Numbered from the stretch's first letter, positions 3,486-63,380 are shown. The stretch: 64,000 nt of DNA from Candidatus Woesebacteria bacterium (GCA_018060845.1 JAGOVG010000001.1:152740-216739); one strand, 5' to 3'. Numbers and translations are program-made. Notes: a model not told the origin generated them from the sequence alone.

Positions 3486-3833
3486 TTAGTAAGCAGTTGG
3501 AGGCGTAATGTTGTCGTTGAGGATGCTGATACCAAAGAAGTATTGGATGATCAACATGACCGCCCAAGCAGAGGCTACGACTGCGAGACCAACTAGAGCT
3601 GCAGTGATGCGATCACGAGCTTCTTGGGTTTTGCCTTTGTCACCACCTGATGTAATCCATTGGATGCCACCCCAGATTAGATACATGAAGACGAGGAGAG
3701 CAGAAACGAGTAGTGCTCCCTGGACTGCACCCTTGATGAGAGTACCAATATTGGTGATTGCGACGTTGTCTGGCTTGCCAATTGAGAGGTCTGGAGCTGC
3801 TGGAGCTGCTAAGACTTTGGAAATTTCGAACAT
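3486..3833 (-). CDS. Pilin-like protein (VirB2/TrbC-like), paralog 1 of the array
   Basis: Conserved core YLIWGGIQWITSGGDKGKTQEARDRITAALVGLAVVASAWAV. Start moved to MFEISK because a strong RBS, AAAGGAGAAcatATG, sits just upstream. It has its own terminator. Confidence 0.7.
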   Translation of the reverse strand: MFEISKVLAAPAAPDLSIGKPDNVAITNIGTLIKGAVQGALLVSALLVFMYLIWGGIQWITSGGDKGKTQEARDRITAALVGLAVVASAWAVMLIIQYFFGISILNDNITPPTAY

Positions 3834-3891
3834 ATGTTCTCCTTTTATTACTTTATGATCTAAGTGTATCAATTATAGCAGGATTAGCAAG

Positions 3892-4266
3892 TTATTTGGT
3901 AATGCCAATCCCAAAGAAGTAGTCGACTAGTAAGTAGACGGCCCAAGCCGAGGCTACGATAGCTAGGCCAACTATAGCCTGGGTAATTTTGTTTCTAGCT
4001 TCTTCCAACTTTCCTTTGTCACCACCGGCCGTGATCCAGTTGATACCTCCGTAGACTAGGTACATAAAAGTGGCGAGCCCAGCTACTAGAATGACGGCCG
4101 AGAAGCTGCGGGAGACAAAAGTGCCAAGATCTTCGTTGATTGCCACGCGAGATTTGACTTGGTCATCCACATTGATGGCAAAGCTACCACCGGCGGCGAG
4201 TGCTACGGGCGTACTAGTTAAAAGTAGAAAGGTAAAAGTTGAAAGTCGGGTGAGTATTTTTTTCAT
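3892..4266 (-). CDS. Pilin-like protein (VirB2/TrbC-like), paralog 2
   Basis: Signal-peptide-like N-terminus, then YLVYGGINWITAGGDKGKLEEARNKITQAIVGLAIVASAWAV. Confidence 0.7.
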   Translation of the reverse strand: MKKILTRLSTFTFLLLTSTPVALAAGGSFAINVDDQVKSRVAINEDLGTFVSRSFSAVILVAGLATFMYLVYGGINWITAGGDKGKLEEARNKITQAIVGLAIVASAWAVYLLVDYFFGIGITK

Positions 4267-4304
4267 ATGTGGTCATTCCCGCCAATGCGGGACTTCGCTT
4301 ACGC

Positions 4305-4661
4305 TCAGCCTGCAGTGGGCCAGATAATGTTTAAGAGATCGACTCCGAGCGCTGATTCGATAAATTTGATTATGACGTAGCTTGCCGCGAGAACTGCAAG
4401 TCCAACTAAACCCTGAGTAATTTTGGCTCGACTCTCGTCAAGTTTTCCTTTGTCACCACCAGCCATAATCCAGTTGAGTCCACCCCAGAGGAAGTAAAGT
4501 AGAAAGGCGAGACCGCCTACGATAATGATGGTTTGCCAGAGCGTGGCCATGGTAATAGCAAATTGTTGAGGAGCACTATCAGGAGAGTCGCCCCCTGGCA
4601 CGGCTGTATTAGTTATCGCTGCGTGTACTTGAGTGACAAGTTGAAAGTTTGTAAAGTTCAT
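4305..4661 (-). CDS. Pilin-like protein, paralog 3
   Basis: FLWGGLNWIMAGGDKGKLDESRAKITQGLVGLAVLAASYVI. Variable N- and C-terminal tails. Confidence 0.7.
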   Translation of the reverse strand: MNFTNFQLVTQVHAAITNTAVPGGDSPDSAPQQFAITMATLWQTIIIVGGLAFLLYFLWGGLNWIMAGGDKGKLDESRAKITQGLVGLAVLAASYVIIKFIESALGVDLLNIIWPTAG

Positions 4662-4665
4662 AAAA

Positions 4666-5028
4666 TTAATTGAAGGTGATCCCCTGAATAATACTACCTG
4701 GTTCGAGGATGTTTAGACCTAGGGCAGAGCCCACGATCCAGACAATGGAGTAGGAGAGGACGATAATGATCAAACCTATGGCGCCACCCGTCATCATGCC
4801 CTTGGCTTTGTCGATCTTACCTTTGTCACCACCGGCCGTGATCCAGTTGAGGCCGCCAAGGAGGAAATAGAGGACAAAAGCAATGCCAGCAACTACGGTT
4901 AGCACAACTAGAGTATTGCTGATTAGTTTTTCAAAGGCACTAGTACTGCCCTCGATGCCACTACCAGGTTGGTATCCACCAGGAGTAGTAATCTGACTAA
5001 AGCTAGTGTCTGCCAAGATTTTTGACAT
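4666..5028 (-). CDS. Pilin-like protein, paralog 4
   Basis: FLLGGLNWITAGGDKGKIDKAKGMMTGGAIGLIIIVLSYSIV. Confidence 0.7.
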   Translation of the reverse strand: MSKILADTSFSQITTPGGYQPGSGIEGSTSAFEKLISNTLVVLTVVAGIAFVLYFLLGGLNWITAGGDKGKIDKAKGMMTGGAIGLIIIVLSYSIVWIVGSALGLNILEPGSIIQGITFN

Positions 5029-5031
5029 AAA

Positions 5032-5367
5032 TTAAAAACTCCCTGGTCCAGTAATGGTAGGAGATAAGATAGCTCCTGCATCGCCAAATAGGACAAAGGA
5101 GACAATGCCGGTAATCGCTGCTGCGCCTACCATGATGATTAAACCGAGGAGAGACATGTTGATTGAGTACATAGCAGCCTGGATCTTTTTCTCGTCCCCT
5201 CCGGCCGTGACGTAAGTAAAGCCAGAGATCATGAGATTAAAGAATGCGTACAATCCCGCTGCAACAAAAATAACGGTCACAATATTAGTGATAAAACTTG
5301 GTAACCCAGTGTTGACATCACCGTAGTTGGTTACTGGATTGTCGATGTTACCAAAGACGCTTGCCAT
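5032..5367 (-). CDS. Pilin-like protein, paralog 5 (diverged)
   Basis: Same two-TM topology. The motif is degenerated to TYVTAGGDEKKIQAAMYSINMSLLGLIIMVG. Confidence 0.6.
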   Translation of the reverse strand: MASVFGNIDNPVTNYGDVNTGLPSFITNIVTVIFVAAGLYAFFNLMISGFTYVTAGGDEKKIQAAMYSINMSLLGLIIMVGAAAITGIVSFVLFGDAGAILSPTITGPGSF

Positions 5368-5371
5368 AGAT

Positions 5372-5719
5372 TTATAGAATCTCTAGTCCGGTGACGATCT
5401 GAATAATCTGAATTATCCAGTACGAACCGAAGACTACTAATAGGCCCATTATAGCAAAAGTAATAGTTTTTTTGCCCTCTTCCATCTTGTGACTATCGCT
5501 GGCGCCACTTATCACATTAAATCCGCCGAGTACAAACATAAAAAAGAGCACTAGCCCTGCTGCGACATAGACGTTCGGGAGGATGGCGTTGATTAAGTCG
5601 CTCGCACTACCGTAGGTCGAGTCTGCGCTACTACCCTGGAAAATAAGCTTGTCACCTAAGTTAAATCCTGCCATGCCATTTATTATACCCTTTGGAGTAG
5701 AATATGGCACATGGAACAA
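5372..5719 (-). CDS. Pilin-like protein, paralog 6 (diverged)
   Basis: Two TM around the motif ISGASDSHKMEEGKKTITFAIMGLLVVFGSYWII. The real start may be the internal MAGFNLG at 5674, because 5711-5719 overlaps the divergent sigma gene. Confidence 0.55.
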   Translation of the reverse strand: MFHVPYSTPKGIINGMAGFNLGDKLIFQGSSADSTYGSASDLINAILPNVYVAAGLVLFFMFVLGGFNVISGASDSHKMEEGKKTITFAIMGLLVVFGSYWIIQIIQIVTGLEIL

Positions 5720-16756: not shown

Positions 16757-17339
16757 TAGTGTAATTATAGCCCCACTCCGCATAAAGCTTCGCTAGGGAC
16801 ACACTTCGCCTGACATATAGAATCATGTTCCATGAATTAGTTTTGTGTGTGGCCGTGCCACTGCGTAGCTCCGTAGGAGCGAAGTGTGGAGACGGAGGGC
16901 AGTGAGCCCTCGTCCGGAGCGAGTTTTTAACACCATCTACATACATAGATAAATTTATTTTTTAACCTCTCAACTATTAGGTATTTATCAGACCAAGATA
17001 GTTTTGAGGGTAGTCGTTTATATGGCCACGCCTGACTAGGGCGGGGTTATGGCTCATGTTTGTTTCCACCTACACCATTGCCATGAGCGACTCGGGTGTA
17101 AATGTCCTGGTTAAGCTCTATTACCCGCGAGGGTGTAGTTACCAAACAAGGAAGCAATAGCGCGATCTGCACTCTCTAAGAGAGAAACAAATTTACTATA
17201 TGCTGTCTGTGCAGTTTTAGTGACAGATATTTTTTGACGCTGTTTTACGACTTCTCTCGTCAAAGTCGGTATGCAGATGTTAAAGAACTGTCGCCTCGTC
17301 AAAGCAAGACGTCCCCAATAGGCTGTATTATAGCATAGT

Positions 17340-17909: not shown

Positions 17910-18551
17910 TTATTCTTCGCTTGGCATGGTAGCGCCATATTTTTTGGCCATTTCTTCTAGAGCTTTCATATCGTATTCACCACTAGCGTTGGGTGAGGGG
18001 ATGGCCTTGGTCATCTCAGAGAGATCGGTGAATTTGACTGATTGAGGTGGGACGAAATCGGAGTCGGAGGCAGCTGACTTGTCGCAGTTTATGGTGTAGC
18101 CGTCTTCTTTTAGGGTGTCAAAGCCAGATTCGGAGTTAAAGTCGGGAGTTTCTGGAGTGTTTTTACTGTATTCTTTGGCGGATTCGGCCATTTTTTTGGC
18201 TTCCTCTTCGGTAGGGATTGCCATTTTGGTGCCTACTTCTTTTCCGTCTTCCCACATGTAGAGATACTTTTCGTCGTTGAGCATAAACGAAGTCATTTTG
18301 GTGGACTCGACCTGGGTAAGCATGGTTGCTTTCATCTTTTTACCTTTGATCAGGTACTCTGTTTTTTCTTCACCTTTGGTCATGGTGCAGAGAGTGGGGT
18401 TGCCTGAGGCGATAGCTGCTGCCCACTGAGTGGCCTCTTTGACTTGCTCTACAGCAGATTGGGGAGCGTCTGTTTTTTTATTGTTCATATAAAAATAGCC
18501 ACCAAAGGCTAAGAGGATAGCGACTAGTACTAAGGGGAGTGCTTTTTTCAT
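17910..18551 (-). CDS. Secreted or membrane-anchored hypothetical protein
   Basis: Signal/TM MKKALPLVLVAILLAFGGYFY, then a Lys/Glu-rich region. Confidence 0.4.
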   Translation of the reverse strand: MKKALPLVLVAILLAFGGYFYMNNKKTDAPQSAVEQVKEATQWAAAIASGNPTLCTMTKGEEKTEYLIKGKKMKATMLTQVESTKMTSFMLNDEKYLYMWEDGKEVGTKMAIPTEEEAKKMAESAKEYSKNTPETPDFNSESGFDTLKEDGYTINCDKSAASDSDFVPPQSVKFTDLSEMTKAIPSPNASGEYDMKALEEMAKKYGATMPSEE

Positions 18552-21805: not shown

Positions 21806-21842
21806 GTTTGCTTGTAAACCACTCTGGGTGTTTTATAATCTG
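21806..21842. repeat. Leader repeat, copy 3 (partial), abutting the 3' end of tRNA-Ser
   Basis: ttgtaaaccactctgggtgttttataatctgcgg aligns with the 5' half of copies 1 and 2. Confidence 0.45.
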
Positions 21843-21928
21843 CGGAGACGGTGAGATTTGAACTCACGCGTGTCTTGCGACACAAGAGGTTAGCAACCTC
21901 TCGCAATGGGCCACTATGCGACGTCTCC
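21843..21928 (-). tRNA. tRNA-Ser (anticodon GCU), class II with a long variable arm
   Basis: Minus strand reads GGAGACG-tc-gca..tgc-g-AGAGG-ttGCTaa-CCTCT, a long variable arm, then GTGAG-TTCAAAT-CTCAC-CGTCTCC-g. CCA is not encoded. Confidence 0.8.
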
Positions 21929-21969
21929 TTTGATATTCTCTGAATGATTGAAATTATAGCATTGAACTG

Positions 21970-22054
21970 CGGAAGGGAAGGGATTCGAACCCTTGGTGAG
22001 TTTCCCCACGGAGGTTTAGTAAACCTCTGCACTAGGCCACTATGCGACCCCTCC
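21970..22054 (-). tRNA. Class II tRNA (Ser-like) whose anticodon loop reads ttACTaa, an apparent ACU anticodon, which is non-canonical
   Basis: Minus strand reads GGAGGGG-tc-gca..tgc-a-GAGGT-ttACTaa-ACCTC, a 16-nt variable arm, then AAGGG-TTCGAAT-CCCTT-CCCTTCC-g. Confidence 0.6.
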
Positions 22055-31808: not shown

Positions 31809-32183
31809 ATGGATATATACCGCGAAGACGTGATGGATCATTACGAGCACCCTCGTAATCAAGGGTCCTTCGATGATACTCAGGATAAAGAGATTATTGA
31901 AGGTAGAGATAGTAATGCCTCATGTGGGGATATGGTGCAGTTTCAGCTTAGAGTTGAGGATGGCATAGTCGTAGAGGTTAAATGGAAGGGGATAGGGTGT
32001 GCGATTACGACGGCAGCAGCGAGCAAACTGTCTGAGTACCTACAAGGTCGGAATTTGAAGAAGTTGCGTGGGATGAGTGAGGATCAGTTAATTAAAGAAG
32101 CGATTGGATTTGAAGTAAACCCAGGGAGGATTAAGTGTTTGACGCTGCCTACTCGGGTAGTGTGGAAGCTTTTGCAAAATTAA
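31809..32183 (+). CDS. sufU: SufU/IscU-type Fe-S scaffold
   Basis: DHYEHPRNQG...ASCGDM...KGIGCAITTAAAS, the three conserved Cys of SufU. Confidence 0.8.
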   Translation: MDIYREDVMDHYEHPRNQGSFDDTQDKEIIEGRDSNASCGDMVQFQLRVEDGIVVEVKWKGIGCAITTAAASKLSEYLQGRNLKKLRGMSEDQLIKEAIGFEVNPGRIKCLTLPTRVVWKLLQN

Positions 32184-33207
32184 GATTGGGGAGTCGATCT
32201 AGCGAGGTGGGCTCTATAAAATCATTTCTAAGATATTGATGGTAAGCAGCGACACCGATCATGGCAGCGTTGTCAGTGATCATTTTTTTGGTGTAGGGAT
32301 AGTGCACTCTTAGACCATATTCTTTGGCTAGGTTGCGCGTAGACTCACGTAGCTCTGTGTTACTAACGACGCCACCACCCAAGAGGAGCATCTGTGGGGA
32401 ATATAAATCGATTGCACGGCGGAGCCGCTTCATTAAGTGTTTGAATACCGCCGATTGAAAGCTAGCGGCAAAGTCCTGGATAAATTCTTTTGTTAATTCT
32501 GGCTTTTCTCGTTCTAGATACTGGCGTGCAGCAGTTTTTAAACCAGAAAAACTAAAGTTAAGGTCTGGCCGTGTAGTCATGGGTTCGGGGAGGCGGACTC
32601 TCGGTGTTCCTGCTTTGGCCATCTCGGCAAGGATAGGGCCACCTGGGTAGCCGAGCATGAGCAACCGCGCTACTTTGTCATATGCTTCGCCTGCTGCATC
32701 ATCGAGAGTGGCGCCTAGGAGCTCATAATCGCCAATACCCTTCATGAGCACTAGCTCGGTGTGACCACCGGAGATCAGGAAGCCTATCGCTGGGTAGAGA
32801 GGGGAGACTAGGCCACGAGTACCATTTTTGGTTTGTGCAAAAGCACTTAGCAGGTGTCCCTCCATGTGGTTGACGGCGATTAGAGGTAGGTTGTGTTTGT
32901 TAGCTAGTACTTTGGCATAGGCAATACCCTGTTCGAGAGAAGGGGCGAGACCGGGGCCACGGGTCACGGCTATAGCATCTAATTGTCGTAAATCCTTAAT
33001 ACCAGCCTTGCGTAGGGCGAGGTCAACTACTTTTGGTAGCCATTCTTGGTGAAGCCGCTTGGCGATATCTGGCACAGTGCCACCCCAGTCGGCGTGGTAG
33101 CTGGTCTGGGTGGAGACAACGTTACTAATTACGTGGAGACCTCGGGTGACGGCGGCACAAGTGTCGTCGAGACTGGTTTCGATGCTGAGTATGGTTGGTT
33201 CTTGCAT
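32149..33207 (-). CDS. tsaD: tRNA N6-adenosine threonylcarbamoyltransferase TsaD
   Basis: ILSIETSLDDTCAAV..., HMEGHLLS and GGVVSN match the family. Confidence 0.85.
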   Translation of the reverse strand: MQEPTILSIETSLDDTCAAVTRGLHVISNVVSTQTSYHADWGGTVPDIAKRLHQEWLPKVVDLALRKAGIKDLRQLDAIAVTRGPGLAPSLEQGIAYAKVLANKHNLPLIAVNHMEGHLLSAFAQTKNGTRGLVSPLYPAIGFLISGGHTELVLMKGIGDYELLGATLDDAAGEAYDKVARLLMLGYPGGPILAEMAKAGTPRVRLPEPMTTRPDLNFSFSGLKTAARQYLEREKPELTKEFIQDFAASFQSAVFKHLMKRLRRAIDLYSPQMLLLGGGVVSNTELRESTRNLAKEYGLRVHYPYTKKMITDNAAMIGVAAYHQYLRNDFIEPTSLDRLPNLNFAKASTLPE

Positions 33208-33255
33208 AACTTGGTATTATACCTGGTTGTCATCTTGGTTTATGGTATTTTACTG

Positions 33256-33352
33256 GCGAGAATCTCGTGTCAGGTAAAAACTAAGTCGTTCGTAGAGCGC
33301 TGTCGTGGTACTCACTTGGTTAGTTTTTTACTTGATTGCTCGTACTTACGCT
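33256..33352. repeat. Intergenic repeat family B, copy 1 (about 97 bp), in the tsaD/HIT divergent region
   Basis: gcgagaatctcgtgtcaggtaaaaactaagtcgttcgtagagcgctgtcgtggtactcacttggttagttttttacttgattgctcgtacttacgctgcg. About 90% identical to 48178-48275. Confidence 0.65.
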
Positions 33353-33391
33353 GCGTAAAATCGCAACACCAATATGCTAATATCTACCTAT

Positions 33392-33763
33392 ATGTCAGAC
33401 TGTATTTTTTGTAAAGTAGTGGCAGGAGAGATCCCTTGCTACAAGATATATGAGGATGAGAAGTACTTAGCGTTTTTGGACCTATTCCCGAAAACTAGTT
33501 CTCAAATGTTGGTGATACCCAAAGTTCACACAGAGTGGGTGTGGGACGTACCAGAACTAGGAGAGTATTATGAGGTAGCCGGCAAGGTGGCTAGGCATGT
33601 TAGAGAGATCGATAATGGGGCGCCTGTTAGACAAATGGTGTTTGGTTTTCAAGTTCCACATGCACACATCCAATTACGACCTGGTAGAGACGATGACCGT
33701 GATGGATCACAAGCGAGTGCAGAAGAAATGGAGTCGTGGAGAGCTAAATATACAATGATTTAA
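33392..33763 (+). CDS. HIT-family (histidine triad) hydrolase
   Basis: MSDCIFCKVVAGEIPCYKIYEDEKYLAFLDLFPKT..., and HAHIQ in place of HxHxH. Confidence 0.7.
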   Translation: MSDCIFCKVVAGEIPCYKIYEDEKYLAFLDLFPKTSSQMLVIPKVHTEWVWDVPELGEYYEVAGKVARHVREIDNGAPVRQMVFGFQVPHAHIQLRPGRDDDRDGSQASAEEMESWRAKYTMI

Positions 33764-34848
33764 GTCCATTCAGGGTGTGAAACGGAATAGGTAATAGTAC
33801 GAGTAGAGACATCTTTTTCTTTTATTTCGATGTAAATTATTAAACAGATATCTTTGTATTCATTTAATAGATCATTTGCTTTGGCTGCCCACTCCATAGA
33901 GATAATATTTCCGGGTTTGAGGAGGGACGATATGTGGAGTGTCGACTCTAACTCAGCGCTTTCGGGCAGTCGCCAAGTATCCAGATGGTAGAACACTCCC
34001 TGGTATTTAGGCGTAGTGTATGGGTACTCGTGGAGGAGGGTATATGTAGGGGAGGCAACTGTCTCCTCGATACCAATAGCTTGGGCGATACCCTTGCTTA
34101 GCTGAGTTTTGCCGACTCCCAGATCACCTTGTAAGGCGAAGATGAGCGGATATTTGCGAGTAGCGTTGATATATTTTCCTGTCAGTTTTTTTCCTAATTC
34201 AATTGTCTCCTCAACACTCGTAGTAATAAGAGTGGTAGTTGGGGTATTGGGGAGAAAGATCTCACCCTGTCGCATGATCTCAGGCGCGTTGAGGGTGGTG
34301 TCGACTACCGTGCTGGTCGGGCGCTCCAAGAGAACCCCGGCGTCCAAAAAGAGATCTACCATCTCCTGTTTGGCAATGGTAGTATATTTTTGCCAATCTT
34401 TTAGAGAATAGGGTTCTTTTTTGCCACTCGTGTTAGCGCTAGTGGCAGTAATCGCGCTACCAAAAACCTTGATTAAGTCTAGGCAGTATTTATGATCAGG
34501 GATCCTGACGCCTAGGGTCTGGCTCGCTGATTCTAATCTCTGATCTACCACCTTTTTGGATTGAGAGATAACAGTGATAGGGCCAGGGAGAAACTGGGCA
34601 TAGAGATTATCGGCAATCGGATTGATTGATATGTATGTCTCTGCCATCGCTCTGTCTGAAACGGCAATGCTAATTTGGCGGTGCCTATCGCCTTTGTACT
34701 CTAGGAGTTTGGTAACAGCACTAGAGTTGGTTGCATCAACGGCGATGCCATAGCAGGTCTCGGTAGGGAAGATGACAAGGCCACCATCCCTCAATATTTT
34801 GATTGCGAGAGGTATTGAGTCGGGGTGGGATGTGGGGATTATTTGCAT
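33760..34848 (-). CDS. Fusion of TsaC/Sua5 (YrdC domain, N-terminal) and TsaE (P-loop ATPase, C-terminal)
   Basis: N-terminal ILRDGGLVIFPTETCYGIAVDATNSSAVTKLLEYKGDRHRQISIAV is a YrdC signature. C-terminal LQGDLGVGKTQLSKGIAQAIG...VASPTYTLLHEY...YHLDTWRL is a TsaE Walker A/SPT motif. Confidence 0.7.
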   Translation of the reverse strand: MQIIPTSHPDSIPLAIKILRDGGLVIFPTETCYGIAVDATNSSAVTKLLEYKGDRHRQISIAVSDRAMAETYISINPIADNLYAQFLPGPITVISQSKKVVDQRLESASQTLGVRIPDHKYCLDLIKVFGSAITATSANTSGKKEPYSLKDWQKYTTIAKQEMVDLFLDAGVLLERPTSTVVDTTLNAPEIMRQGEIFLPNTPTTTLITTSVEETIELGKKLTGKYINATRKYPLIFALQGDLGVGKTQLSKGIAQAIGIEETVASPTYTLLHEYPYTTPKYQGVFYHLDTWRLPESAELESTLHISSLLKPGNIISMEWAAKANDLLNEYKDICLIIYIEIKEKDVSTRTITYSVSHPEWT

Positions 34849-56828: not shown

Positions 56829-57395
56829 ATGAAGAAGACTAACTATCTACTAGTGCTGTTTTTGTTGTTCGTAGGTTTTTGTATATTCATATTCTCGTTA
56901 TATAACGCGTCACTAGTTGGACTTAAGAGGCAACTCGGGCTGGTGGGAGGTGATCTGACTCAGAGCGTCGACGTCAATCGACTTTACCGCGCGGTGTTAG
57001 AGGTGGGTGGAGTGCCGAGCTGTGAATACTGGCGGTCTGTTGCTCCCATACCGAGATATATCTTTGCAGAGGATAATGAAAAGATGGAGCTTGGCCGCGA
57101 TCTTTCTAACCAGCGTATTAACTGCTCGATAGACTATCTCTTGTCTGGTAACACTGAGCGTGGGGTTTATTCGATGCTCAAAGCGGTGCGCTACGAATTA
57201 GCGGGTGCACAGATTATGGAGCGAACGATAAAGAGCAATCCTAGTCTGTGTGGGAAGCTACAGACTAATGCGTCGTACGGCCTGATTGAGGCATATCTGG
57301 AGTCTGTAGAGGGTAATGCGCGAGGGATAATAGAGCGTGAGTACGAAGAGCTACAACGAGTAAATCGTCAAAACCTAGAAACGTGTGGTTTGTAA
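56829..57395 (+). CDS. Membrane-anchored hypothetical protein
   Basis: N-terminal TM (YLLVLFLLFVGFCIFIFSLY). Confidence 0.4.
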   Translation: MKKTNYLLVLFLLFVGFCIFIFSLYNASLVGLKRQLGLVGGDLTQSVDVNRLYRAVLEVGGVPSCEYWRSVAPIPRYIFAEDNEKMELGRDLSNQRINCSIDYLLSGNTERGVYSMLKAVRYELAGAQIMERTIKSNPSLCGKLQTNASYGLIEAYLESVEGNARGIIEREYEELQRVNRQNLETCGL

Positions 57396-57581
57396 GATTT
57401 TGATCTAGAAGCGCTAGATTGACCAACAACTCTCGAAGTTCTAGAGTGAATGTAGGTTTAACAATTTAACGAGATATTGGATAAGGAAGTAGGGTGAAAT
57501 ACCCTCACTGTGCCGCAACGGTTAAAGTCCGGAACTTGCCAATATTCTCGCCTTATTACGCATCCTCCGCGCGAGAGGATG

Positions 57582-58889
57582 AAGGAGAGTTTTGTGGGTA
57601 GATTTTTAGAAGTATTTGATCATCAAGTTGGCGTTGAAACATTTAAGATTTCGAACGCTGATGGAACTCTCGCTGCGACTGAGTCAAACTTGCATCTTTG
57701 GTATAGCCAGGTAGCAAATAGAGATACTAAGGATGTTAATAGGTTTGGTGAGAATAAAGGCGAGAGCGAAAAGATGTTTTCCTTATGGTTGTATTACTGG
57801 ATGATAGACCACGAAAGTTTGGCAACAAATGATTTAGAGAGCAGGCTATATATTGACGGAATGACATATCTAGCAGAGAGAGTATTCGAGTTGCCTTACA
57901 ACGAACTTAAACTACATTTTACTGATGAAGAAATATATGGAGTTGGGTTTGGAGACAAAGGAGTACTGAATATCTGTCGAGACGGAGTTGACTTAAGGAG
58001 AGCAGAGCAGGAGTCTACTAATAGAGTAATGCATGAAGGATTAGGGATGTGGAACTTAGTACAACTCTTGCAGACACTTAAGGTTGGTGAAAGTGCAATG
58101 TTGATTAGTCCTCCTGATCCCGACGATCCCAATATGGGCGGGTACAACTTGATTTATTTGTACGAGAAAACTAGCGAAAATAATCTAAGAATGGGGGTTA
58201 TTACAGATAATGTGAATGACATTGAATACTGGAGAAATAATGCCAGTACTTTTTCAAGATACAGAAACGACTTTAGTCAATATGATCACAATCAATTTGT
58301 AGCACACCCATTTATTACGAAGCAGAGTTTAGTTGAAATAAAGTCGACTATTTTACATACGGATGATAAATATGTGCCTGATTGGGCGCTCGAGAAATTA
58401 CGCAAAGTCATCCCCTCAGTAAGAAAAGCTCTCTATGAAGGAAATGTAAAGCGGGCAGAAGAGCTTTTTAACGCGTTCAAAATAGCTACTACTGCCAAAC
58501 TTCTCAATAAAGATAAAGATGTAAACATGGAAAGACTTGTCGACGATATTGAGTATTTCATGGTCATCTCAGGATGGTATATCCATAATGGAGGTGATAA
58601 ATATATAAACAAAAAGACAGGATGTAGCTTAGATAGAATTAACCTGGGAGATCGAGACCTATTTAATAACCAATGGGATAGATACACTAAGTTTGACATG
58701 AATTCGGTTGGAACGGATAAACCTGAGGACGAGACATATAGTTTTGACATAAGGGGAAAATGTGTAGGTAGTTGTTTTGATGAGGTTTTAGAAGATGGAA
58801 CCAAGGTTAAACACGAAAGAGATCTCGGTCCATGTCACCTATGTAGAGAGTGTGATGCAGAGGCGAAGAAGAACTCCCAGACTAGCTAA
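57582..58889 (+). CDS. Hypothetical protein (about 435 aa)
   Basis: Long ORF. Start uncertain (57510 or the ATG at 57582, which sits inside a hairpin). C-terminal Cys cluster CHLCRECD. Confidence 0.4.
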   Translation, partial: KESFVGRFLEVFDHQVGVETFKISNADGTLAATESNLHLWYSQVANRDTKDVNRFGENKGESEKMFSLWLYYWMIDHESLATNDLESRLYIDGMTYLAERVFELPYNELKLHFTDEEIYGVGFGDKGVLNICRDGVDLRRAEQESTNRVMHEGLGMWNLVQLLQTLKVGESAMLISPPDPDDPNMGGYNLIYLYEKTSENNLRMGVITDNVNDIEYWRNNASTFSRYRNDFSQYDHNQFVAHPFITKQSLVEIKSTILHTDDKYVPDWALEKLRKVIPSVRKALYEGNVKRAEELFNAFKIATTAKLLNKDKDVNMERLVDDIEYFMVISGWYIHNGGDKYINKKTGCSLDRINLGDRDLFNNQWDRYTKFDMNSVGTDKPEDETYSFDIRGKCVGSCFDEVLEDGTKVKHERDLGPCHLCRECDAEAKKNSQTS

Positions 58890-59004
58890 AGTAATTGCCC
58901 CTATTTGATACAGTCATTGCTAGTTGACGACCCCTGCCAGTAGGGGGTACGGTAGATAGGCCCTACTATATGTAGGGTTTTGGTTCTAAAAGGAGCTACC
59001 AGAT

Positions 59005-59463
59005 ATGCAATGTCCATACTGCCATCACGAGGATACTTCCGTCCTCGAGTCGCGTATCACAGCCGAAGGTGGTGCGATGAGGCGCAGACGTGAGTGTGTT
59101 AAGTGTAGTAAGCGTTTTACCACCTACGAGCGAGCTGAGGGAGTAGATATTAGAGTGGTCAAAAAGACAGGCAAGGTAGAGGACTTTGATAGAGAGAAGC
59201 TAAAAAGAGGGGTGATGAAGGCTACCTGGAAACGTCCAGTCTCTATGGAGCAGATCGAGGCAATGGTTGACGAGATAGAAAGGATCCTTAGGCGTAAGAC
59301 TACAACTGAAGTTAGGAGTTGGGAGGTAGGTAATCTTGTGATCAATAGATTAAAAAAGATTGATCCACTGGCATATTTACTATTTGCTAGTGTGTACAGA
59401 GAATTTGAGAACTTGTCTGATTTTGAAGAAGAAATTAAAAAACTAAAGGAACCTGCCCAATGA
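59005..59463 (+). CDS. nrdR: Transcriptional repressor NrdR (zinc ribbon plus ATP cone)
   Basis: MQCPYCHHEDTSVLESR...RRRECVKCSKRFTTYE. Confidence 0.85.
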   Translation: MQCPYCHHEDTSVLESRITAEGGAMRRRRECVKCSKRFTTYERAEGVDIRVVKKTGKVEDFDREKLKRGVMKATWKRPVSMEQIEAMVDEIERILRRKTTTEVRSWEVGNLVINRLKKIDPLAYLLFASVYREFENLSDFEEEIKKLKEPAQ

Positions 59464-61481
59464 AAATCACCAAACTGAACAAAAATGCTGCTGCTATTAT
59501 GGTAAATCGCTATAGCTTGAGGGATGACTCAGGGCACCCTGTTGAGTCACCTGCAGAGATTTTGATGCGTACTGCTAGAGTAGTCGCAGAAGCCGAGAAC
59601 AACTACAGAAGCAGTGGTGACACCTCGATGGAAGTGAGAGAAAAGTTTTTTGAGATGTTATACGAGATGAGGTTTGTGCCAAATGGTCGTACTATGGCTA
59701 ACGCAGGGACTAAGTATGGCCAGCTAGCAAACTGTTTTGTATTGCCGGTTGAAGATGATCTAGGCAAAGGAACTGACTCGATATTTTCTGTGCTTCGCAA
59801 GGCTATCCTAACACTGCAAACTGGCGGGGGAGTAGGTTTTTCTTTTGGGCGGATAAGGCCGAAAGAGGCATCAATTAGCACAACCAAAGGTAAAGCAACT
59901 GGAGCTGTATCTTTTATCAAGGTGTATGACACAGCTTTTTGGGTAATCGGCCAAGGTGGGGGTAGGCGTAGTGCGGCTATGGCTGTCCTACCTGTATGGC
60001 ATCCAGACATTTACGAATTTGTGAGATGTAAAGCGACAGAGGGACAGATTACCAACTTTAATATCTCAGTTGGGATAACAGATGAGTTTATGACGGCAGT
60101 TGCCAAGGATGAGGATTTTTCACTGCGCCACCCTGAAAATGGAGAACTATATCGAATGGTTCCGGCACGAGAATTATTTGCGGAGATTGTAAAGTTTGCT
60201 CATAAAAATGGCGAACCAGGTGTACTGTTTCTTGATGCTGCCAATAGAAGTAATCCTGTTCCACATCTATACAAACTCGAGGCAACAAACCCATGTGGAG
60301 AACAGTTCTTGGGTCCATACGAAAACTGCTGTTTGGGGAGTTTGAATCTTAGAGAACATGTAAAGTTAGCAAAAAATGATAAGTTAAAAGTTAAAAGTTA
60401 TATTGTGGATTGGGAAAAGTTAGCAGAGACGGTGGAATTATCGGTTAGATTTTTGGACAATGTGGTCGATGCTAATAAATATGTCTCGGCAGTACCAGAG
60501 CTCGAAGAAGCTGCCCACAAAGTGCGCCGCATTGGTTTGTCTGTGATGGGGTTATCAGACATGATGTATATGACCAATGTTCGATATGGTTGTGATAAAG
60601 GCCAGGAGCTGGCATCACAACTCATGGAGTTTATACGCTACCACTCGATGAGAGCTTCGATAGAACTCGCTCGGGTTAGAGGACCATTCCCTGGTATAAA
60701 CGGCAGTATTTACGATCCACAAAAAGTAACCTGGACAGTACCAAAGCCAAGAGTCGTTCATAAATCTGACTTTGGAAGACCAGAACTAGATTGGAAACTA
60801 ATTACAAAAGGATTAAAGTCTAACGGGATTCGAAATGGGGCTCAGACTACAGTTGCTCCAACCGGAAGCATTGCCACTATATCAGGACTTGAGGGGTATG
60901 GATGTGAGCCAGTATTTGCATTATCTTATATCCGCCACACGAGAGAGGGTGCAGAAAAAGAAGGCAAAGAATGGCGTGAAATGTACTACGAGAGTAGTCT
61001 TTTTGAATCTGCGATGAAGCGAGAGGGCATGAGTAAAAGCCAGAGGAACCAACTGTTTGCCGAAGTAAGAGACAATGGAGGGAGTTTGAAGGGAATAAAA
61101 GGTGTACCCAAACAGATTGCTGACACTTATGTAGTGTCATCTGACCTTAGTGTCGAAGAACACGTCCGGATGCAGGCCGTGATGCAGGCATGGATTGATA
61201 ACTCGATCAGTAAGACCATTAACTTCCCCAGTACTGCGACAGTTGACGAAGTGGCAGAGGCTTATCAACTAGGCTGGAAGCTGGGACTTAAGGGCATGAC
61301 AGTCTATGTAGAGGGGTCAAGAGAGCAGGTAGTACTAGAGAAGAAGAGTGCTCCATTTGAAACAAAAGAAGACAAGCAAGTAACATCTGAGGAGCTGTGT
61401 CCAGAATGTGGAACACCCATGCGGAGAGAAGAGGGGTGTTCTACTTGCCCTAGTTGTGCGTACTCTAAATGTGATAAATAG
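59460..61481 (+). CDS. nrdJ: Class II (adenosylcobalamin-dependent) ribonucleotide reductase, paralog a (no ATP cone)
   Basis: [44 protein letters not shown] and a C-terminal CPECG...CSTCPSC zinc ribbon. Confidence 0.8.
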
Positions 61482-61490
61482 GACATTTAT

Positions 61491-63380
61491 ATGACAAAAC
61501 CAAAAATAATTGAACCAAAACTGACGAAAAATGCGCAAGAAGTAGCTAAGAAGCGTTATTTGCGGACAGATATGAATGGAGTTGTTGTTGAGACTCCGGG
61601 AGAAATGTTGTGGCGAGTAGCCTATCACATGGCCAAACCAGAAGTTGCCTGGGGGACTAATGGCATAGTGATGGAGACAGCCGCTCGGTTTTATGAGCGA
61701 ATGGCGTCTCTCAAGATGGTATGTGCTGGCAAGGCAATGTTTGAGGCGGGGAACCCTGGGGGGACCGGACAATTATCTTCTTGTTTTGTGTTGCCAATAG
61801 AGGATTCGATCGGCAAGATTTTTAAGACTTTGGGTGATGCGGCGGTTGTACATAAAAATAACGGGGGTACTGGCTTTAACTTTAGCAAAATTAGGCCACA
61901 CGGGGATAAGGTAAAGAACGTGCCGGGTGCATCATCGGGACCGGTTGATTTTATCAAGGCGTACTCGGCAGCACTGGCTCAGATTTTGCAGGGCGCAAAA
62001 AGACAGGGCGCCAACATCGCAATTTTAAATGCGAACCACCCGGACATAGAGGAGTTTATTGATCTAAAAGCACAGGACGGGACGATTAAAAACTTTAATG
62101 TGTCGGTGGGTGTAACTGACTCATTTATGGAGGCAGTGGAAGGTGACAAATATTGGAATTTGGTAAACCCAAGAAATGGAGAGGTAGTTAAGAAAATTAA
62201 GGCAAAAACACTATTTAATAAGATTGCAGAAGCTGCGTGGAGGACGGGCGACCCAGGTCTTATGTTCTTGGACAATACAGAGCGTGGCAACACTGTTCCT
62301 AATTTTGGCAAACTAGATGCCACTAATCCGTGTGGGGAGATTGCACTGTTTCCTTATGAATCATGTAACTTAACTAGTATTGATTTGGCGAGACACCTTA
62401 AGAAGAGTAAGAAGGGGTATGAGATAGACTACAAAGAGCTTGGTGAGACAGTGCGACTAGGGGTTAGATTCCTCGACAACATGATAGAAGTGAATGCGTA
62501 CCCAGTCTCTGAGATTGAGGCAACGGTTAAAAATGGTAATCGGAGGATTGGACTAGGTGTCATGGGATTTGCGCATGTACTGTACAGGATGGGGATTCCT
62601 TACAACAGTAGCGACGCAGTAAAACTAGCCAAGGAAATGTCCAAATTTATATACGAGACTGCAGCTGAAATGTCATCTGAGCTAGCTGAAGTGAGAGGAA
62701 ACTTTAACAACTGGGATCTCTCAATCTACCCTGCAAAAGGACAGCCGATGCGCAACTGCGCGGTGACGATGATTGCGCCTACTGGGACGATTTCGATCCT
62801 AGCGGACACGAGTAGTGGAATAGAGCCAGTTTTTAGTTTGGTCACGAAGCGCAGAACTTTTTATGAAGATGATAAGTCTAACCACTCAACAAAAGAGCTT
62901 CTCATGGTTGACCCTGTTTTTGAAGAATATATTGGAAAGAGAAAAGATATTCTAGAACAAGTAGCAAATGGAGATTACTCAGGACTAACTCCTTTGGAGC
63001 GAAAGTTGTTTGTCACTACACACCAGATAGAACCCGAGTGGCATGTGAAGATACAAGCGGCGTGGCAGAAGTATTTTGATAACTCGATTAGCAAGACAGT
63101 TAATTTTGGACACGAGGCGAAGGTTGAAGATGTTAAGACTGTATATATGCAGGCATGGAAGCTGGGATGTAAGGGTGTCACGATTTATCGAGACGGGAGT
63201 AAGGGAGATCAAGTTTTGAGTACTGTAAAATCGGACAACCAGAATACTCAGAGTGTCGGTGACTCAGAACAATCTGAGAGCCAAAGTGAAGAGTTGGTAT
63301 GTCCTGAGTGTGGTGGGAAGCTACACAAACAAGATGGCTGCTCAAAGTGTATTGATTGTGGATATAGCGTATGCGGATAA
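61491..63380 (+). CDS. nrdJ: Class II ribonucleotide reductase, paralog b (no ATP cone)
   Basis: SSCFVLPIEDS, NPCGEIALFPYESCNLTSIDL and a C-terminal CPECGG...CSKCIDC. Its linker carries CGGACAACC repeat copy D. Confidence 0.8.
   Translation: MTKPKIIEPKLTKNAQEVAKKRYLRTDMNGVVVETPGEMLWRVAYHMAKPEVAWGTNGIVMETAARFYERMASLKMVCAGKAMFEAGNPGGTGQLSSCFVLPIEDSIGKIFKTLGDAAVVHKNNGGTGFNFSKIRPHGDKVKNVPGASSGPVDFIKAYSAALAQILQGAKRQGANIAILNANHPDIEEFIDLKAQDGTIKNFNVSVGVTDSFMEAVEGDKYWNLVNPRNGEVVKKIKAKTLFNKIAEAAWRTGDPGLMFLDNTERGNTVPNFGKLDATNPCGEIALFPYESCNLTSIDLARHLKKSKKGYEIDYKELGETVRLGVRFLDNMIEVNAYPVSEIEATVKNGNRRIGLGVMGFAHVLYRMGIPYNSSDAVKLAKEMSKFIYETAAEMSSELAEVRGNFNNWDLSIYPAKGQPMRNCAVTMIAPTGTISILADTSSGIEPVFSLVTKRRTFYEDDKSNHSTKELLMVDPVFEEYIGKRKDILEQVANGDYSGLTPLERKLFVTTHQIEPEWHVKIQAAWQKYFDNSISKTVNFGHEAKVEDVKTVYMQAWKLGCKGVTIYRDGSKGDQVLSTVKSDNQNTQSVGDSEQSESQSEELVCPECGGKLHKQDGCSKCIDCGYSVCG
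63231..63290. repeat. CGGACAACC-family repeat, copy D, in-frame inside nrdJ paralog b
   Basis: tcggacaaccagaatactcagagtgtcggtgactcagaacaatctgagagcc, encoding SDNQNTQSVGDSEQSES. Confidence 0.6.

What the first reader, a model, noticed from the sequence alone, without database searches (positions are those of the whole stretch)
32149..34848. t6A cluster with a TsaC-TsaE fusion protein next to tsaD
33760..34848 encodes an N-terminal YrdC/Sua5-type threonylcarbamoyl-AMP synthase domain fused to a C-terminal TsaE P-loop ATPase (GDLGVGKT, SPTYTL, YHLDTWRL). tsaD is the adjacent gene. TsaC acts in solution while TsaE cycles on the TsaBDE complex, so a covalent C-E fusion is not the usual arrangement. 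It would tether TC-AMP synthesis to the transferase complex, perhaps compensating for a missing TsaB, since no tsaB is visible in the window.
Basis: partly seen in the sequence, partly recalled or inferred. Interest (0 to 1): 0.6.

Follow-up and report, generated by a model that had tools for sequence, protein, structure and literature searches.

The report
Fused TsaC–TsaE t6A enzyme
One gene in this uncultured Microgenomates-type bacterium joins the enzyme that makes the unstable threonylcarbamoyl-AMP intermediate to the ATPase that services the tRNA t6A transferase; the fusion is real, conserved in hundreds of related genomes, and I found no description of it, and it argues that the two proteins act together.

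Summary
ORF 33760..34848(-) is one uninterrupted 362-aa protein with a complete TsaC (YrdC-type) domain, a 13-residue unconserved linker and a complete TsaE P-loop ATPase. Both domains score above the curated Pfam and NCBIfam cut-offs and both fold confidently. It is not an artefact. All 123 close cluster representatives, 134 of the 150 best 50%-identity representatives and all 80 fetched species-representative loci carry the same single-ORF fusion. The host record titles name Microgenomates, Dojkabacteria/WS6 and CPR3. tsaD follows on the same strand in 61 of those 80 loci. In the window's clade a convergent HIT gene sits between them, so tsaD is not strictly adjacent. Two reverse-order TsaE–TsaC fusions and an unfused tsaE–tsaC pair occur in other contigs, which argues for coupling rather than accident. 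A non-covalent TsaC2–TsaE complex is published for Thermotoga. Most likely the fusion tethers TC-AMP synthesis to the TsaE docking step on TsaD. No tsaB lies in the window, in 20 kb beyond it, or in 1.15 Mb of related flanks, but the whole genome could not be searched. Contigs with unfused or reverse-order genes carry a ~100-aa "mini-TsaB" that is easy to overlook. "Missing TsaB" is therefore unproven. Verdict: new variant of a known system, moderate interest.

The parts
34258..34848 (-). TsaC (YrdC-type L-threonylcarbamoyladenylate synthase) domain of the fusion, residues 1-197
   Evidence: PF01300 covers residues 17-195. TIGR00057 scores 146 bits, above the 123.2 cut-off. The best PDB sequence match is MTH1692 at 4.4e-29, followed by Sua5/TsaC2 chains. 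The AF2 model has pLDDT of about 95 here, and Foldseek matches YciO and YrdC with target-normalised TM about 0.8. K52, R115, T136 and N139 are invariant, and S137 nearly so, across 30 fusions at 29-58% identity.
34219..34257 (-). Inter-domain linker, residues 198-210 (IFLPNTPTTTLIT)
   Evidence: Identity to the window protein across the diverse fusions is 10% here, against 42% for the TsaC domain and 32% for the TsaE domain, and the length varies. pLDDT dips to 77-82 around residues 190-210, and pTM is only 0.62 despite a mean pLDDT of 92.5. This reads as a flexible tether rather than a fixed interface.
33760..34218 (-). TsaE P-loop ATPase domain of the fusion, residues 211-362, plus the stop codon
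   Evidence: PF02367 covers residues 210-350. TIGR00150 scores 81 bits, above the 60.1 cut-off. Walker A G241-x2-G244-x-G246-K247-T248, S266-P-T-Y269, H288, D290 and E319-W320 are conserved. Foldseek matches H. influenzae YjeE 1htw with target-normalised TM 0.80 and rmsd 2.2 A, and also the T. maritima TsaE chains of 6n9a and 6s84.
33374..33763 (+). HIT-family gene (129 aa), convergent with the fusion and lying between it and tsaD
   Evidence: PF01230 HIT at 1.9e-11. An orthologous minus-strand ORF sits in the same position in about 44 of 81 related loci. The motif is HAHIQ in the window and HAHIH in many relatives. Whether it belongs functionally to the t6A genes is unknown.
32149..33207 (-). 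tsaD, the tRNA A37 threonylcarbamoyltransferase subunit (352 aa)
   Evidence: PF00814 at 1.4e-81. TIGR03723 scores 346 bits, above the 296.1 cut-off. The metal-site motifs HMEGH and TDNAAM can be read in the translation. A tsaD follows the fusion on the same strand in 61 of 80 species-representative loci.

Best explanation
The gene encodes a bifunctional t6A-pathway protein. An N-terminal TsaC domain makes the labile intermediate threonylcarbamoyl-AMP (TC-AMP) from threonine, bicarbonate and ATP. It is joined by a short flexible linker to a C-terminal TsaE ATPase. In characterised bacteria TsaE docks over the TsaD active site at the TsaB-TsaD interface, and its ATP hydrolysis resets the transferase for the next turnover. 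The fusion is the normal form of these two proteins in a large clade of CPR/Patescibacteria whose record titles name Microgenomates, Dojkabacteria/WS6 and CPR3. There it is usually co-transcribed with tsaD. Most likely mechanism, which is inferred: each time the TsaE domain docks on TsaD in its ATP state, the tethered TsaC domain is held within a few nanometres of the open TsaD pocket. TC-AMP is then handed over instead of diffusing and hydrolysing. ATP hydrolysis next releases the whole TsaC-TsaE module and frees the site for tRNA. Reset and reload become one step, and the two activities are made in a fixed 1:1 ratio. Shown here: the domain identities, the intact catalytic motifs, the conservation, the synteny with tsaD and the independent reverse-order fusions. 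Inferred: enzymatic activity, the hand-off, and the partner composition (TsaD with or without a TsaB).
For: The domain calls exceed the curated thresholds and both folds are confirmed. Catalytic residues of both halves are invariant across fusions down to 29% identity, while the linker is unconserved. All 123 close cluster representatives and 134 of the 150 best 50%-identity representatives carry both domains. The genome scan found 239 stretches in species-representative genomes that encode a relative, and all 80 loci fetched hold the single-ORF fusion. tsaD lies downstream on the same strand in 61 of 80 loci, and in about 20 its reading frame abuts or overlaps the fusion's stop. The opposite domain order also exists: the TsaE-TsaC proteins P0251 and P0263. 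An unfused, overlapping tsaE-tsaC gene pair occurs in L089/L090. Fusion in both orders plus gene adjacency is classic evidence for functional coupling. Published biochemistry agrees. [quoted passage not shown] Missoury et al. proposed that TsaE-bound TsaBD 'prepares' TsaD for TC-AMP transfer from TsaC (PMC6009658).
Against: No biochemistry exists for any member. Luthra et al. showed that TsaB2D2 plus TsaC2 completes one turnover without TsaE, so TsaE is not required for TC-AMP transfer in Thermotoga. Superposing TobZ on TsaBDE places the TsaC-like module on the side of TsaD opposite to TsaE, and a 13-residue linker may not span that distance. AF2 gives no defined inter-domain geometry (pTM 0.62). 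The canonical KxR motif of TsaC reads K52-G-D-R55 in this subfamily, so TC-AMP synthase activity is assumed rather than certain. Genome streamlining in CPR could fix fusions of neighbouring genes without any kinetic benefit.
Confidence: 0.7

Rival explanations
1. Neutral compaction. tsaC and tsaE were neighbours in an ancestral CPR operon and were joined by loss of a stop codon during genome streamlining. The two domains still work independently, as in other bacteria, and the tether gives no channelling advantage beyond co-expression.
For: An unfused overlapping tsaE-tsaC pair exists in related contigs. The linker is short, unconserved and predicted to be flexible, and no inter-domain interface is predicted. 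TsaE is dispensable for the TC-AMP hand-off in a single turnover in Thermotoga (PMC5814804).
Against: The fusion arose in both orders. It has been kept intact across relatives down to about 30% identity and in every one of the 80 species-representative loci fetched. A physical TsaC2-TsaE interaction is seen even between unfused proteins.
Confidence: 0.25
2. The lineage has lost TsaB, so the machinery is reduced to two polypeptides: TsaC-TsaE and TsaD, with TsaD perhaps a Qri7-like homodimer. The fusion compensates by anchoring TsaE and TsaC to TsaD.
For: No TsaB-like ORF was found in the window, in 10 kb beyond each end, or in 1.15 Mb flanking the fusion in 80 related genomes. The same query finds T. 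maritima TsaB at 1e-9 in the PDB, so sensitivity is adequate. In the contigs with unfused or reverse-order genes that were examined, a mini-tsaB lies next to tsaE or close by. In the C-E lineage tsaD occupies the position next to the fusion instead.
Against: The flanks sample only about 1-2% of each genome, assuming roughly 1-Mb genomes, so about one chance tsaB would be expected among 80 loci. Zero is therefore not significant. Among the genomes surveyed in 2015, TsaE is the subunit that gets lost, and TsaB is missing only together with TsaE, in two Mycoplasma (PMC4615747). TsaE does not bind TsaD or TsaB alone (PMC5814804). A fully intact TsaE ATPase is retained here. ~100-aa mini-TsaBs are numerous in the protein database and could lie elsewhere in the genome.
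Confidence: 0.15
3. The N-terminal domain is not the TC-AMP synthase. It would be a YciO-like or other PF01300 paralogue with a different substrate, with the true TsaC/Sua5 encoded elsewhere.
For: PF01300 paralogues keep TsaC-like active sites and cannot be told apart by sequence alone (PMC12506659). The KxR arginine is displaced by one residue. By phmmer the domain scores higher against E. coli YciO (61 bits) than against E. coli TsaC (48 bits).
Against: TIGR00057 scores above its trusted cut-off. The domain scores higher still against Sua5/TsaC2 (66-77 bits) and MTH1692 (105 bits). It has the TsaC-type Thr before SxN (T136; criterion from PMC10321239). It is fused to TsaE and linked to tsaD in dozens of genomes, whereas yciO is reported to cluster with rnm. 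Other members of the same fusion family have the canonical KxRP motif. No second PF01300 ORF occurs in the window or the flanks.
Confidence: 0.05
4. Artefact: a frameshift, a mis-assembly or a read-through of two separate genes.
For: None was found.
Against: The reading frame is continuous. The identical protein occurs in two independent assemblies. The length stays at 361-362 aa in over 100 clusters. The same single ORF is found in 80 loci from different species-representative genomes.
Confidence: 0.01

Closest known systems
Canonical bacterial TsaB-TsaC-TsaD-TsaE system (E. coli YeaZ/YrdC/YgjD/YjeE; T. maritima TsaB2D2E2 plus TsaC2)
   Same: The same protein families and presumably the same chemistry: TsaC makes TC-AMP, TsaD transfers the threonylcarbamoyl group to A37, and the TsaE ATPase resets TsaD. 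A weak TsaC2-TsaE complex is already known in T. maritima (PMC5814804).
   Different: Here TsaC and TsaE are one polypeptide, and the gene is usually operonic with tsaD. No tsaB is linked to it. The KxR arginine is shifted by one position in the window's subfamily.
Sua5 / TsaC2 (TsaC domain plus C-terminal SUA5 domain)
   Same: [quoted passage not shown] These are the best whole-chain Foldseek hits.
   Different: The second domain here is a TsaE P-loop ATPase (PF02367), not SUA5 (PF03481 gives no hit). Only the N-domain superposes, with whole-chain rmsd of 15-18 A. The protein carries the TsaC-type Thr, not the Sua5-type Pro, before SxN.
TobZ, HypF and Pandoravirus TsaN (YrdC-like domain fused to a Kae1/TsaD-like domain)
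   Same: The synthase of the adenylate intermediate is covalently coupled to the rest of the carbamoyl-transfer machinery. In TobZ and HypF this channels the intermediate (PMC10484737; PMC6009658).
   Different: Those proteins fuse the synthase to the transferase itself. Here it is fused to the transferase's regulatory ATPase, and TsaD remains a separate protein.
Archaeal Kae1-Bud32 fusion (for example MJ1130, HVO_1895)
   Same: A natural fusion in the t6A pathway that revealed a functional partnership with the ATPase/kinase regulator. It is fused in 25 of 53 archaea surveyed (PMC4615747).
   Different: It joins the transferase to its regulator, not the TC-AMP synthase to the regulator. Bud32 is unrelated to TsaE.
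Other reported bacterial t6A gene fusions: yeaZ::rimI::ygjD, alr::yjeE, hydrolase::yeaZ (SyntTax, PMC3571937) and TsaC/HemK in M. genitalium MG259 (PMC4615747)
   Same: They show that t6A genes are prone to fusion with neighbouring genes.
   Different: None of them joins TsaC to TsaE. The SyntTax paper states that no direct interaction of YrdC with the YgjD complex had been reported at that time.

Membership tests
TsaC/Sua5 family (L-threonylcarbamoyladenylate synthase, PF01300 / TIGR00057) | Profile match above the curated thresholds | tested here: met
   PF01300 145 bits against a cut-off of 25.1. TIGR00057 146.1 bits against 123.2.
TsaC/Sua5 family (L-threonylcarbamoyladenylate synthase, PF01300 / TIGR00057) | Catalytic KxR...SxN tetrad, the filter used by Pichard-Kostuch et al. 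2023 (PMC10321239) | tested here: inconclusive
   S137-A-N139 and K52 are present. N139 and K52 are invariant in both alignments, and S137 is invariant in the close set and over 90% conserved in the diverse set. The arginine lies at K+3 (K52-G-D-R55) rather than K+2, and is invariant in the window's subfamily. Other fusion-family members have the canonical K-x-R-P.
TsaC/Sua5 family (L-threonylcarbamoyladenylate synthase, PF01300 / TIGR00057) | YrdC-like alpha/beta fold | tested here: met
   The AF2 N-domain has pLDDT of about 95. Foldseek target-normalised TM is 0.82 to 1k7j and 0.82 to 1hru_B, with rmsd 2.7-2.8 A.
TsaC/Sua5 family (L-threonylcarbamoyladenylate synthase, PF01300 / TIGR00057) | t6A genomic context that separates TsaC from the YciO paralogue | tested here: met
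   The domain is fused to TsaE, and tsaD lies downstream in 61 of 80 loci. No rnm-type context was seen.
TsaC/Sua5 family (L-threonylcarbamoyladenylate synthase, PF01300 / TIGR00057) | Makes TC-AMP from Thr, HCO3- and ATP | not testable with these tools
   This requires an enzyme assay.
Sua5 / TsaC2 subtype | C-terminal SUA5 domain (PF03481) and Pro before SxN | tested here: not met
   No PF03481 hit. The residue before SxN is T136, the TsaC type. The second domain does not superpose on Sua5.
TsaE (YjeE) ATPase, PF02367 / TIGR00150 | Profile match above the curated thresholds | tested here: met
   PF02367 89.8 bits against 26.6. TIGR00150 81 bits against 60.1.
TsaE (YjeE) ATPase, PF02367 / TIGR00150 | Walker A GxxGxGKT, SPT(F/Y) loop, YHxDxYR switch, and the E-W pair (E. 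coli T43, Y82, E108, W109) | tested here: met
   G241DLGVGKT248, S266PTY269, Y287HLDTWR293 (Trp in place of the switch Tyr) and E319W320 are all present. G241, G244, G246, K247, T248, S266, H288, D290, E319 and W320 are invariant in 30 diverse fusions. The residue roles come from PMC6009658.
TsaE (YjeE) ATPase, PF02367 / TIGR00150 | TsaE fold | tested here: met
   Foldseek matches 1htw_A with target-normalised TM 0.80 and rmsd 2.2 A, and also 6n9a_E, 6s84_B/E and 5np9.
TsaE (YjeE) ATPase, PF02367 / TIGR00150 | Binds the TsaB-TsaD interface, with ATPase activity stimulated by TsaBD | not testable with these tools
   This needs biochemistry or a structure of the complex.
Bacterial TsaBDE threonylcarbamoyl-transfer complex | TsaD transferase present with intact metal-site motifs | tested here: met
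   TIGR03723 346 bits against 296.1. HMEGH and TDNAAM can be read in the translation.
Bacterial TsaBDE threonylcarbamoyl-transfer complex | TsaB dimerisation subunit encoded in the genome | tested here: inconclusive
   TsaB is absent from the window, from 20 kb beyond it and from 1.15 Mb of related flanks.
TobZ / HypF / TsaN-type fusions | YrdC-like and Kae1/TsaD-like domains in one polypeptide | tested here: not met
   The fusion protein has no PF00814 domain, and tsaD is a separate gene.

The most novel reading that the evidence does not exclude
In the Microgenomates/Dojkabacteria-type CPR clade the bacterial t6A machinery has been reduced to two polypeptides, TsaC-TsaE and TsaD, with TsaB lost. 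TsaE would then act on a TsaD homodimer (Qri7-like), with TC-AMP synthesis physically built into the reset ATPase. This would be the first bacterial system that keeps TsaE without TsaB.
Probability: 0.15. Interest if true: 0.75.

Novelty: new variant of a known kind. Interest (0 to 1): 0.5.

Why it matters
Two points are explicitly left open in the bacterial t6A papers read here: how the very labile TC-AMP gets from TsaC to TsaD, and what TsaE's ATPase cycle really does. A natural TsaC–TsaE fusion that is conserved, found in both domain orders and operonic with tsaD is 'Rosetta-stone' evidence that TsaC and TsaE act at the same step. That supports the model in which the TsaE-bound state is the TC-AMP loading state. 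It also offers a simpler, stoichiometrically locked protein for structural and kinetic work on the hand-off. Automated annotation names the protein only 'L-threonylcarbamoyladenylate synthase', so TsaE would be scored as absent from these genomes. Published family surveys would have excluded it through their filters: a strict KxR requirement, or a length window of 150–350 aa. Together with the ~100-aa mini-TsaB seen in other contigs, it shows that CPR bacteria have remodelled an otherwise near-universal, essential pathway.

Tried and rejected
- **Artefact.** Frameshift or chimera was rejected: the ORF is continuous, the identical protein occurs in two assemblies, and the fusion is conserved in all relatives examined.
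- **tsaB in the window.** phmmer with E. coli TsaB and with the window's TsaD, Pfam scans of 20 mid-size ORFs, and two mini-TsaB HMMs all hit only tsaD. The two ORFs without a Pfam hit (17910..18551 and 56829..57395) start with a hydrophobic N-terminal segment, as secreted or membrane proteins do, and gave no TsaB hit in any of these searches.
- **tsaB beyond the window.** Ten kb on each side of the same contig holds no PF00814 gene.
- **tsaB or another conserved partner near the fusion elsewhere.** Clustering the ORFs within 5 kb of the fusion in 81 loci gave only tsaD, the HIT gene and antisense shadow ORFs.
- **Whole-genome tsaB test.** This was not possible.
- **Linking mini-TsaB contigs to fusion genomes.** The long mini-TsaB contigs looked up (839 and 750 kb) carry a standalone tsaE, so they are not C-E fusion genomes. 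No mini-TsaB contig matched a fusion contig by length or accession.
- **Fixed inter-domain geometry.** AF2 gives pTM of only 0.62. Matches to Sua5 chains span both domains only with rmsd of 15-18 A. There is therefore no evidence that TsaE occupies the SUA5 position.
- **Literature.** Six full-text searches and nine papers read turned up no TsaC-TsaE fusion and no t6A study of CPR.


Full report

The ORF at 33760..34848 on the minus strand is an uninterrupted 362-codon frame starting with ATG.
- Pfam assigns residues 17-195 to PF01300 (Sua5/YciO/YrdC; E 1.9e-42) and residues 210-350 to PF02367 (TsaE; E 1.8e-25).
- NCBIfam's equivalog models for L-threonylcarbamoyladenylate synthase (TIGR00057, 146 bits, cut-off 123) and for TsaE (TIGR00150, 81 bits, cut-off 60) are both exceeded.
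- The ORF at 32149..33207(-) is a bona fide bacterial TsaD (TIGR03723, 346 bits, cut-off 296). HMEGH and TDNAAM can be read in its translation.

One detail differs from the finding. A 129-aa HIT-family gene, 33374..33763(+), sits between the fusion and tsaD on the other strand and overlaps the fusion's stop codon by 4 nt. tsaD is therefore the next gene on the same strand, not the adjacent gene. Each of the two t6A genes has a -10-like box a few bases upstream of its ATG, as expected if they are transcribed separately here.

**2. Is it an artefact?**

No.
- The exact protein is found on a 226.7-kb contig of the NCBI MAG GCA_020049755.1, which is the source of the window, and independently in a Logan assembly of run SRR11088367.
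- The word-indexed search listed 120 clusters at 57-93% identity. Every one carries both Pfam domains, and nearly all are 361-362 aa long.
- An exhaustive HMMER scan of 1.84 billion 50%-identity representatives found 173 proteins with E < 1e-30.
- Of the best 150 representatives, 134 carry both domains, down to about 30% identity to the query.
- A scan of one genome per GTDB species with two peptide patterns found 239 stretches that encode a relative. All 80 loci fetched contain the single-ORF fusion.
- The informative record titles name the Microgenomates group (Woese-, Shapiro-, Beckwith- and Roizmanbacteria), Dojkabacteria/WS6, CPR3 and 'Patescibacteria group'. This includes the complete Beckwithbacteria chromosome CP011210.1. 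Several TPA titles ('Pseudomonadales', 'archaeon') are evidently mislabelled.

**3. Anatomy**

Two alignments were made: 20 close members (A1) and 30 diverse members (A2).
- In the TsaC half, K52, R115, T136 and N139 are invariant in both alignments.
- In the TsaE half, G241, G244, G246-K247-T248 (Walker A), S266, H288, D290, E319-W320 and R350 are invariant in both alignments.
- Mean identity to the window protein across A2 is 42% in the TsaC domain, 32% in the TsaE domain and only 10% in the 13-residue linker, whose length also varies.
- The AlphaFold2 model has a mean pLDDT of 92.5 but a pTM of only 0.62, with a dip to 77-82 around residues 190-210. This indicates two well-folded domains on a flexible tether, with no confidently fixed mutual orientation.
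- Foldseek matches the N-domain to YciO and YrdC (target-normalised TM about 0.8). It matches the C-domain to YjeE/TsaE, for example 1htw at TM 0.80 and rmsd 2.2 A, and the TsaE chains of the T. maritima TsaBDE complexes.
- Sua5 chains align over both domains only at rmsd 15-18 A, so TsaE does not mimic the SUA5 domain. No PDB match combined a TsaC and a TsaE domain in one chain.

One deviation stands out. The canonical KxR of the TsaC 'KxR...SxN tetrad' reads K52-G-D-R55 in the window's subfamily, with the arginine shifted by one position and invariant there. Other members of the fusion family have the canonical K-x-R-P. The residue before SxN is Thr, the TsaC-type signature as opposed to the Sua5-type Pro (criterion from PMC10321239).

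**4. Genomic context**

- In 61 of the 80 species-representative loci a tsaD follows the fusion on the same strand.
- In about 20 of these its reading frame abuts or overlaps the fusion's stop.
- Most of the remaining loci are contigs that end just after the fusion. About six have at least 5 kb of downstream sequence with no tsaD.
- In about 44 loci, spanning fusion identities from 84% to about 45%, a convergent HIT gene sits between or just after the two genes, as in the window.
- Clustering all ORFs within 5 kb of the fusion found no other conserved partner.

**5. Independent support for a TsaC-TsaE partnership**

- Two representatives, P0251 (340 aa) and P0263 (337 aa), have the opposite order, TsaE then TsaC. 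Both domains again score above the curated cut-offs.
- In other metagenomic contigs, tsaE (142 aa) and tsaC (191 aa) are separate but overlapping neighbouring genes (L089/L090).
- Fusion in both orders plus adjacency is the classic signature of functionally coupled proteins.
- Published biochemistry fits. [quoted passage not shown] TsaE does not bind TsaB or TsaD alone, and its ATPase is required for multiple turnover (PMC5814804).
- From the TsaBDE crystal structure, Missoury et al. proposed that TsaE-bound TsaBD is an inactive but open state. This state 'prepares' TsaD for TsaC and accepts TC-AMP, and ATP hydrolysis then releases TsaE and admits tRNA (PMC6009658).
- The fusion is what that model would predict evolution could exploit.
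- Caveats: TsaE is not needed for a single turnover in Thermotoga. The TobZ analogy places the TsaC-like module on the opposite face of TsaD from TsaE.

**6. The TsaB question**

No TsaB-like ORF was found in any of the following:
- the window;
- the 10 kb beyond each end of the window on the same contig;
- 1.15 Mb of sequence around the fusion in the related loci.

The E. coli TsaB query is sensitive enough to find T. maritima TsaB at 1e-9 in the PDB. However, assuming roughly 1-Mb genomes, these flanks sample only about 1-2% of each genome. About one chance hit would be expected among 80 loci, so the absence is not significant.

While following the reverse-order fusions I found that each is followed, with a 4-nt overlap, by a 105-aa PF00814 gene (L087, L096).
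- This gene matches only positions 1 to about 90 of the 212-position TsaB model and carries the GPGSF.GLRVG motif.
- A profile of 13 such 'mini-TsaBs' retrieves 7,333 proteins at E <= 0.001. The best 120 are all 94-139 aa, and several carry a TsaB name in NCBI or JGI annotation.
- On contigs of 750-839 kb whose gene content looks CPR-like, the mini-tsaB lies one gene away from a standalone tsaE.

The consequences are as follows. TsaB in these contigs is a ~100-aa protein that a reader or an annotation pipeline can easily miss. In the contigs examined it keeps its linkage to tsaE. In the C-E fusion lineage that linkage is not seen. This leaves 'TsaB lost' open, but I rate it at only about 0.15. 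Among the genomes surveyed by Thiaville et al., TsaE is the subunit that gets lost, and TsaB is missing only together with TsaE, in two Mycoplasma (PMC4615747). TsaE needs the TsaB-TsaD pair to bind. A fully intact TsaE domain is retained here.

**7. Comparison with what is known**

By family membership this is a TsaC plus a TsaE, working with a TsaD. It is a variant architecture of the known bacterial t6A system.
- It is not Sua5/TsaC2, because it has no SUA5 domain.
- It is not a TobZ/HypF/TsaN-type synthase-transferase fusion.
- I found no description of a TsaC-TsaE fusion in the t6A reviews and family surveys (PMC4615747, PMC9654439, PMC10321239, PMC10484737), in the SyntTax fusion survey of the YgjD complex (PMC3571937), or in full-text searches combining t6A gene names with CPR/Patescibacteria.
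- Two published surveys used filters that would exclude it: strict KxR/SxN and a length window of 150-350 aa.
- Database annotation calls it only 'L-threonylcarbamoyladenylate synthase' or 'Sua5/YciO/YrdC/YwlC family protein'.

**8. Verdict**

The tethering interpretation is reasonable and fits published data. The 'missing TsaB' rider is unproven and less likely than not. Novelty: a new variant of a known kind. Interest is moderate (0.5). The fusion is not a new mechanism, but it is a widespread natural experiment that bears directly on an open mechanistic question in an essential, universal pathway, and it corrects how t6A genes should be scored in CPR genomes.

Noticed in passing
L087 2364-2681; L096 1655-1972; L089/L090 6001-6324; L091 6001-6345; L093 6523-6828; L095 10001-10303: A large family of ~100-aa 'mini-TsaB' proteins consists only of the N-terminal subdomain of TsaB. 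They match positions 1 to about 90 of the 212-position TIGR03725 model and carry the GPGSF.GLRVG motif. A profile search gave 7,333 hits, and the top 120 are all 94-139 aa. In the contigs examined they lie next to, or within two genes of, tsaE or a TsaE-TsaC fusion, except L088, where no tsaE was seen nearby. I found no description of a half-size TsaB in the papers read.
   Followed up: partly
P0251 = L087 1345-2367; P0263 = L096 645-1658; L089 4596-5587: Reverse-order TsaE-TsaC fusions (337-340 aa) exist, and so does an unfused, overlapping tsaE-tsaC gene pair. The two proteins have therefore been joined in both orders.
   Followed up: partly
window 33374..33763 (+): A HIT-family gene is wedged convergently between the fusion and tsaD, and this placement is conserved in about 44 of 81 related loci. 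The window copy has HAHIQ, an HxHxQ motif (which from memory marks the GalT/Apa transferase-phosphorylase branch of HIT proteins), while many relatives have HAHIH. Because TC-AMP is an acyl-adenylate, a link to adenylate turnover is conceivable but untested.
   Followed up: partly
window 34684..34695 (residues 52-55 of the fusion): The TsaC 'KxR' motif is K-G-D-R in this subfamily, with the Arg shifted by one position and invariant. Other fusion-family members have K-x-R-P. A strict KxR/SxN filter, as used in published family surveys, would discard these proteins.
   Followed up: partly
window 21842..22054 (-): Two tandem tRNA-Ser genes both decode AGY. One has anticodon GCU and one has ACU (anticodon loop UUACUAA). 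To my knowledge an A34 tRNA-Ser is unusual in bacteria. Both have A37 and would be t6A substrates.
   Followed up: no
window 57474..63380 and beyond (L085): An AdoCbl-II riboswitch (57474-57545) is followed by an ORF with no family hit and then nrdR (59005..59463). Three consecutive ribonucleotide-reductase large-subunit-like ORFs come next: 59460..61481, 61491..63380 and a 755-aa ORF past the window end. These may be a split, duplicated or intein-disrupted RNR.
   Followed up: no
window 3486..5719 and 265..3135; L084: An array of seven or eight small tandem paralogues hits PF18895 (T4SS_pilin). It lies beside several very large ORFs (956, 1328 and 948 aa) with no family hit.
   Followed up: no
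L004-L083 record titles: Many TPA MAG records that carry this CPR-type fusion next to a tsaD that closely matches the window's bacterial TsaD are titled 'uncultured Pseudomonadales', 'Gammaproteobacteria', 'Nevskiaceae', 'Planctomycetota' or even 'archaeon'. These are almost certainly taxonomic mislabels.
   Followed up: no
window 16884..17316 (-): A tmRNA gene (Rfam RF00023, 87.6 bits) that ARAGORN did not report.
   Followed up: no
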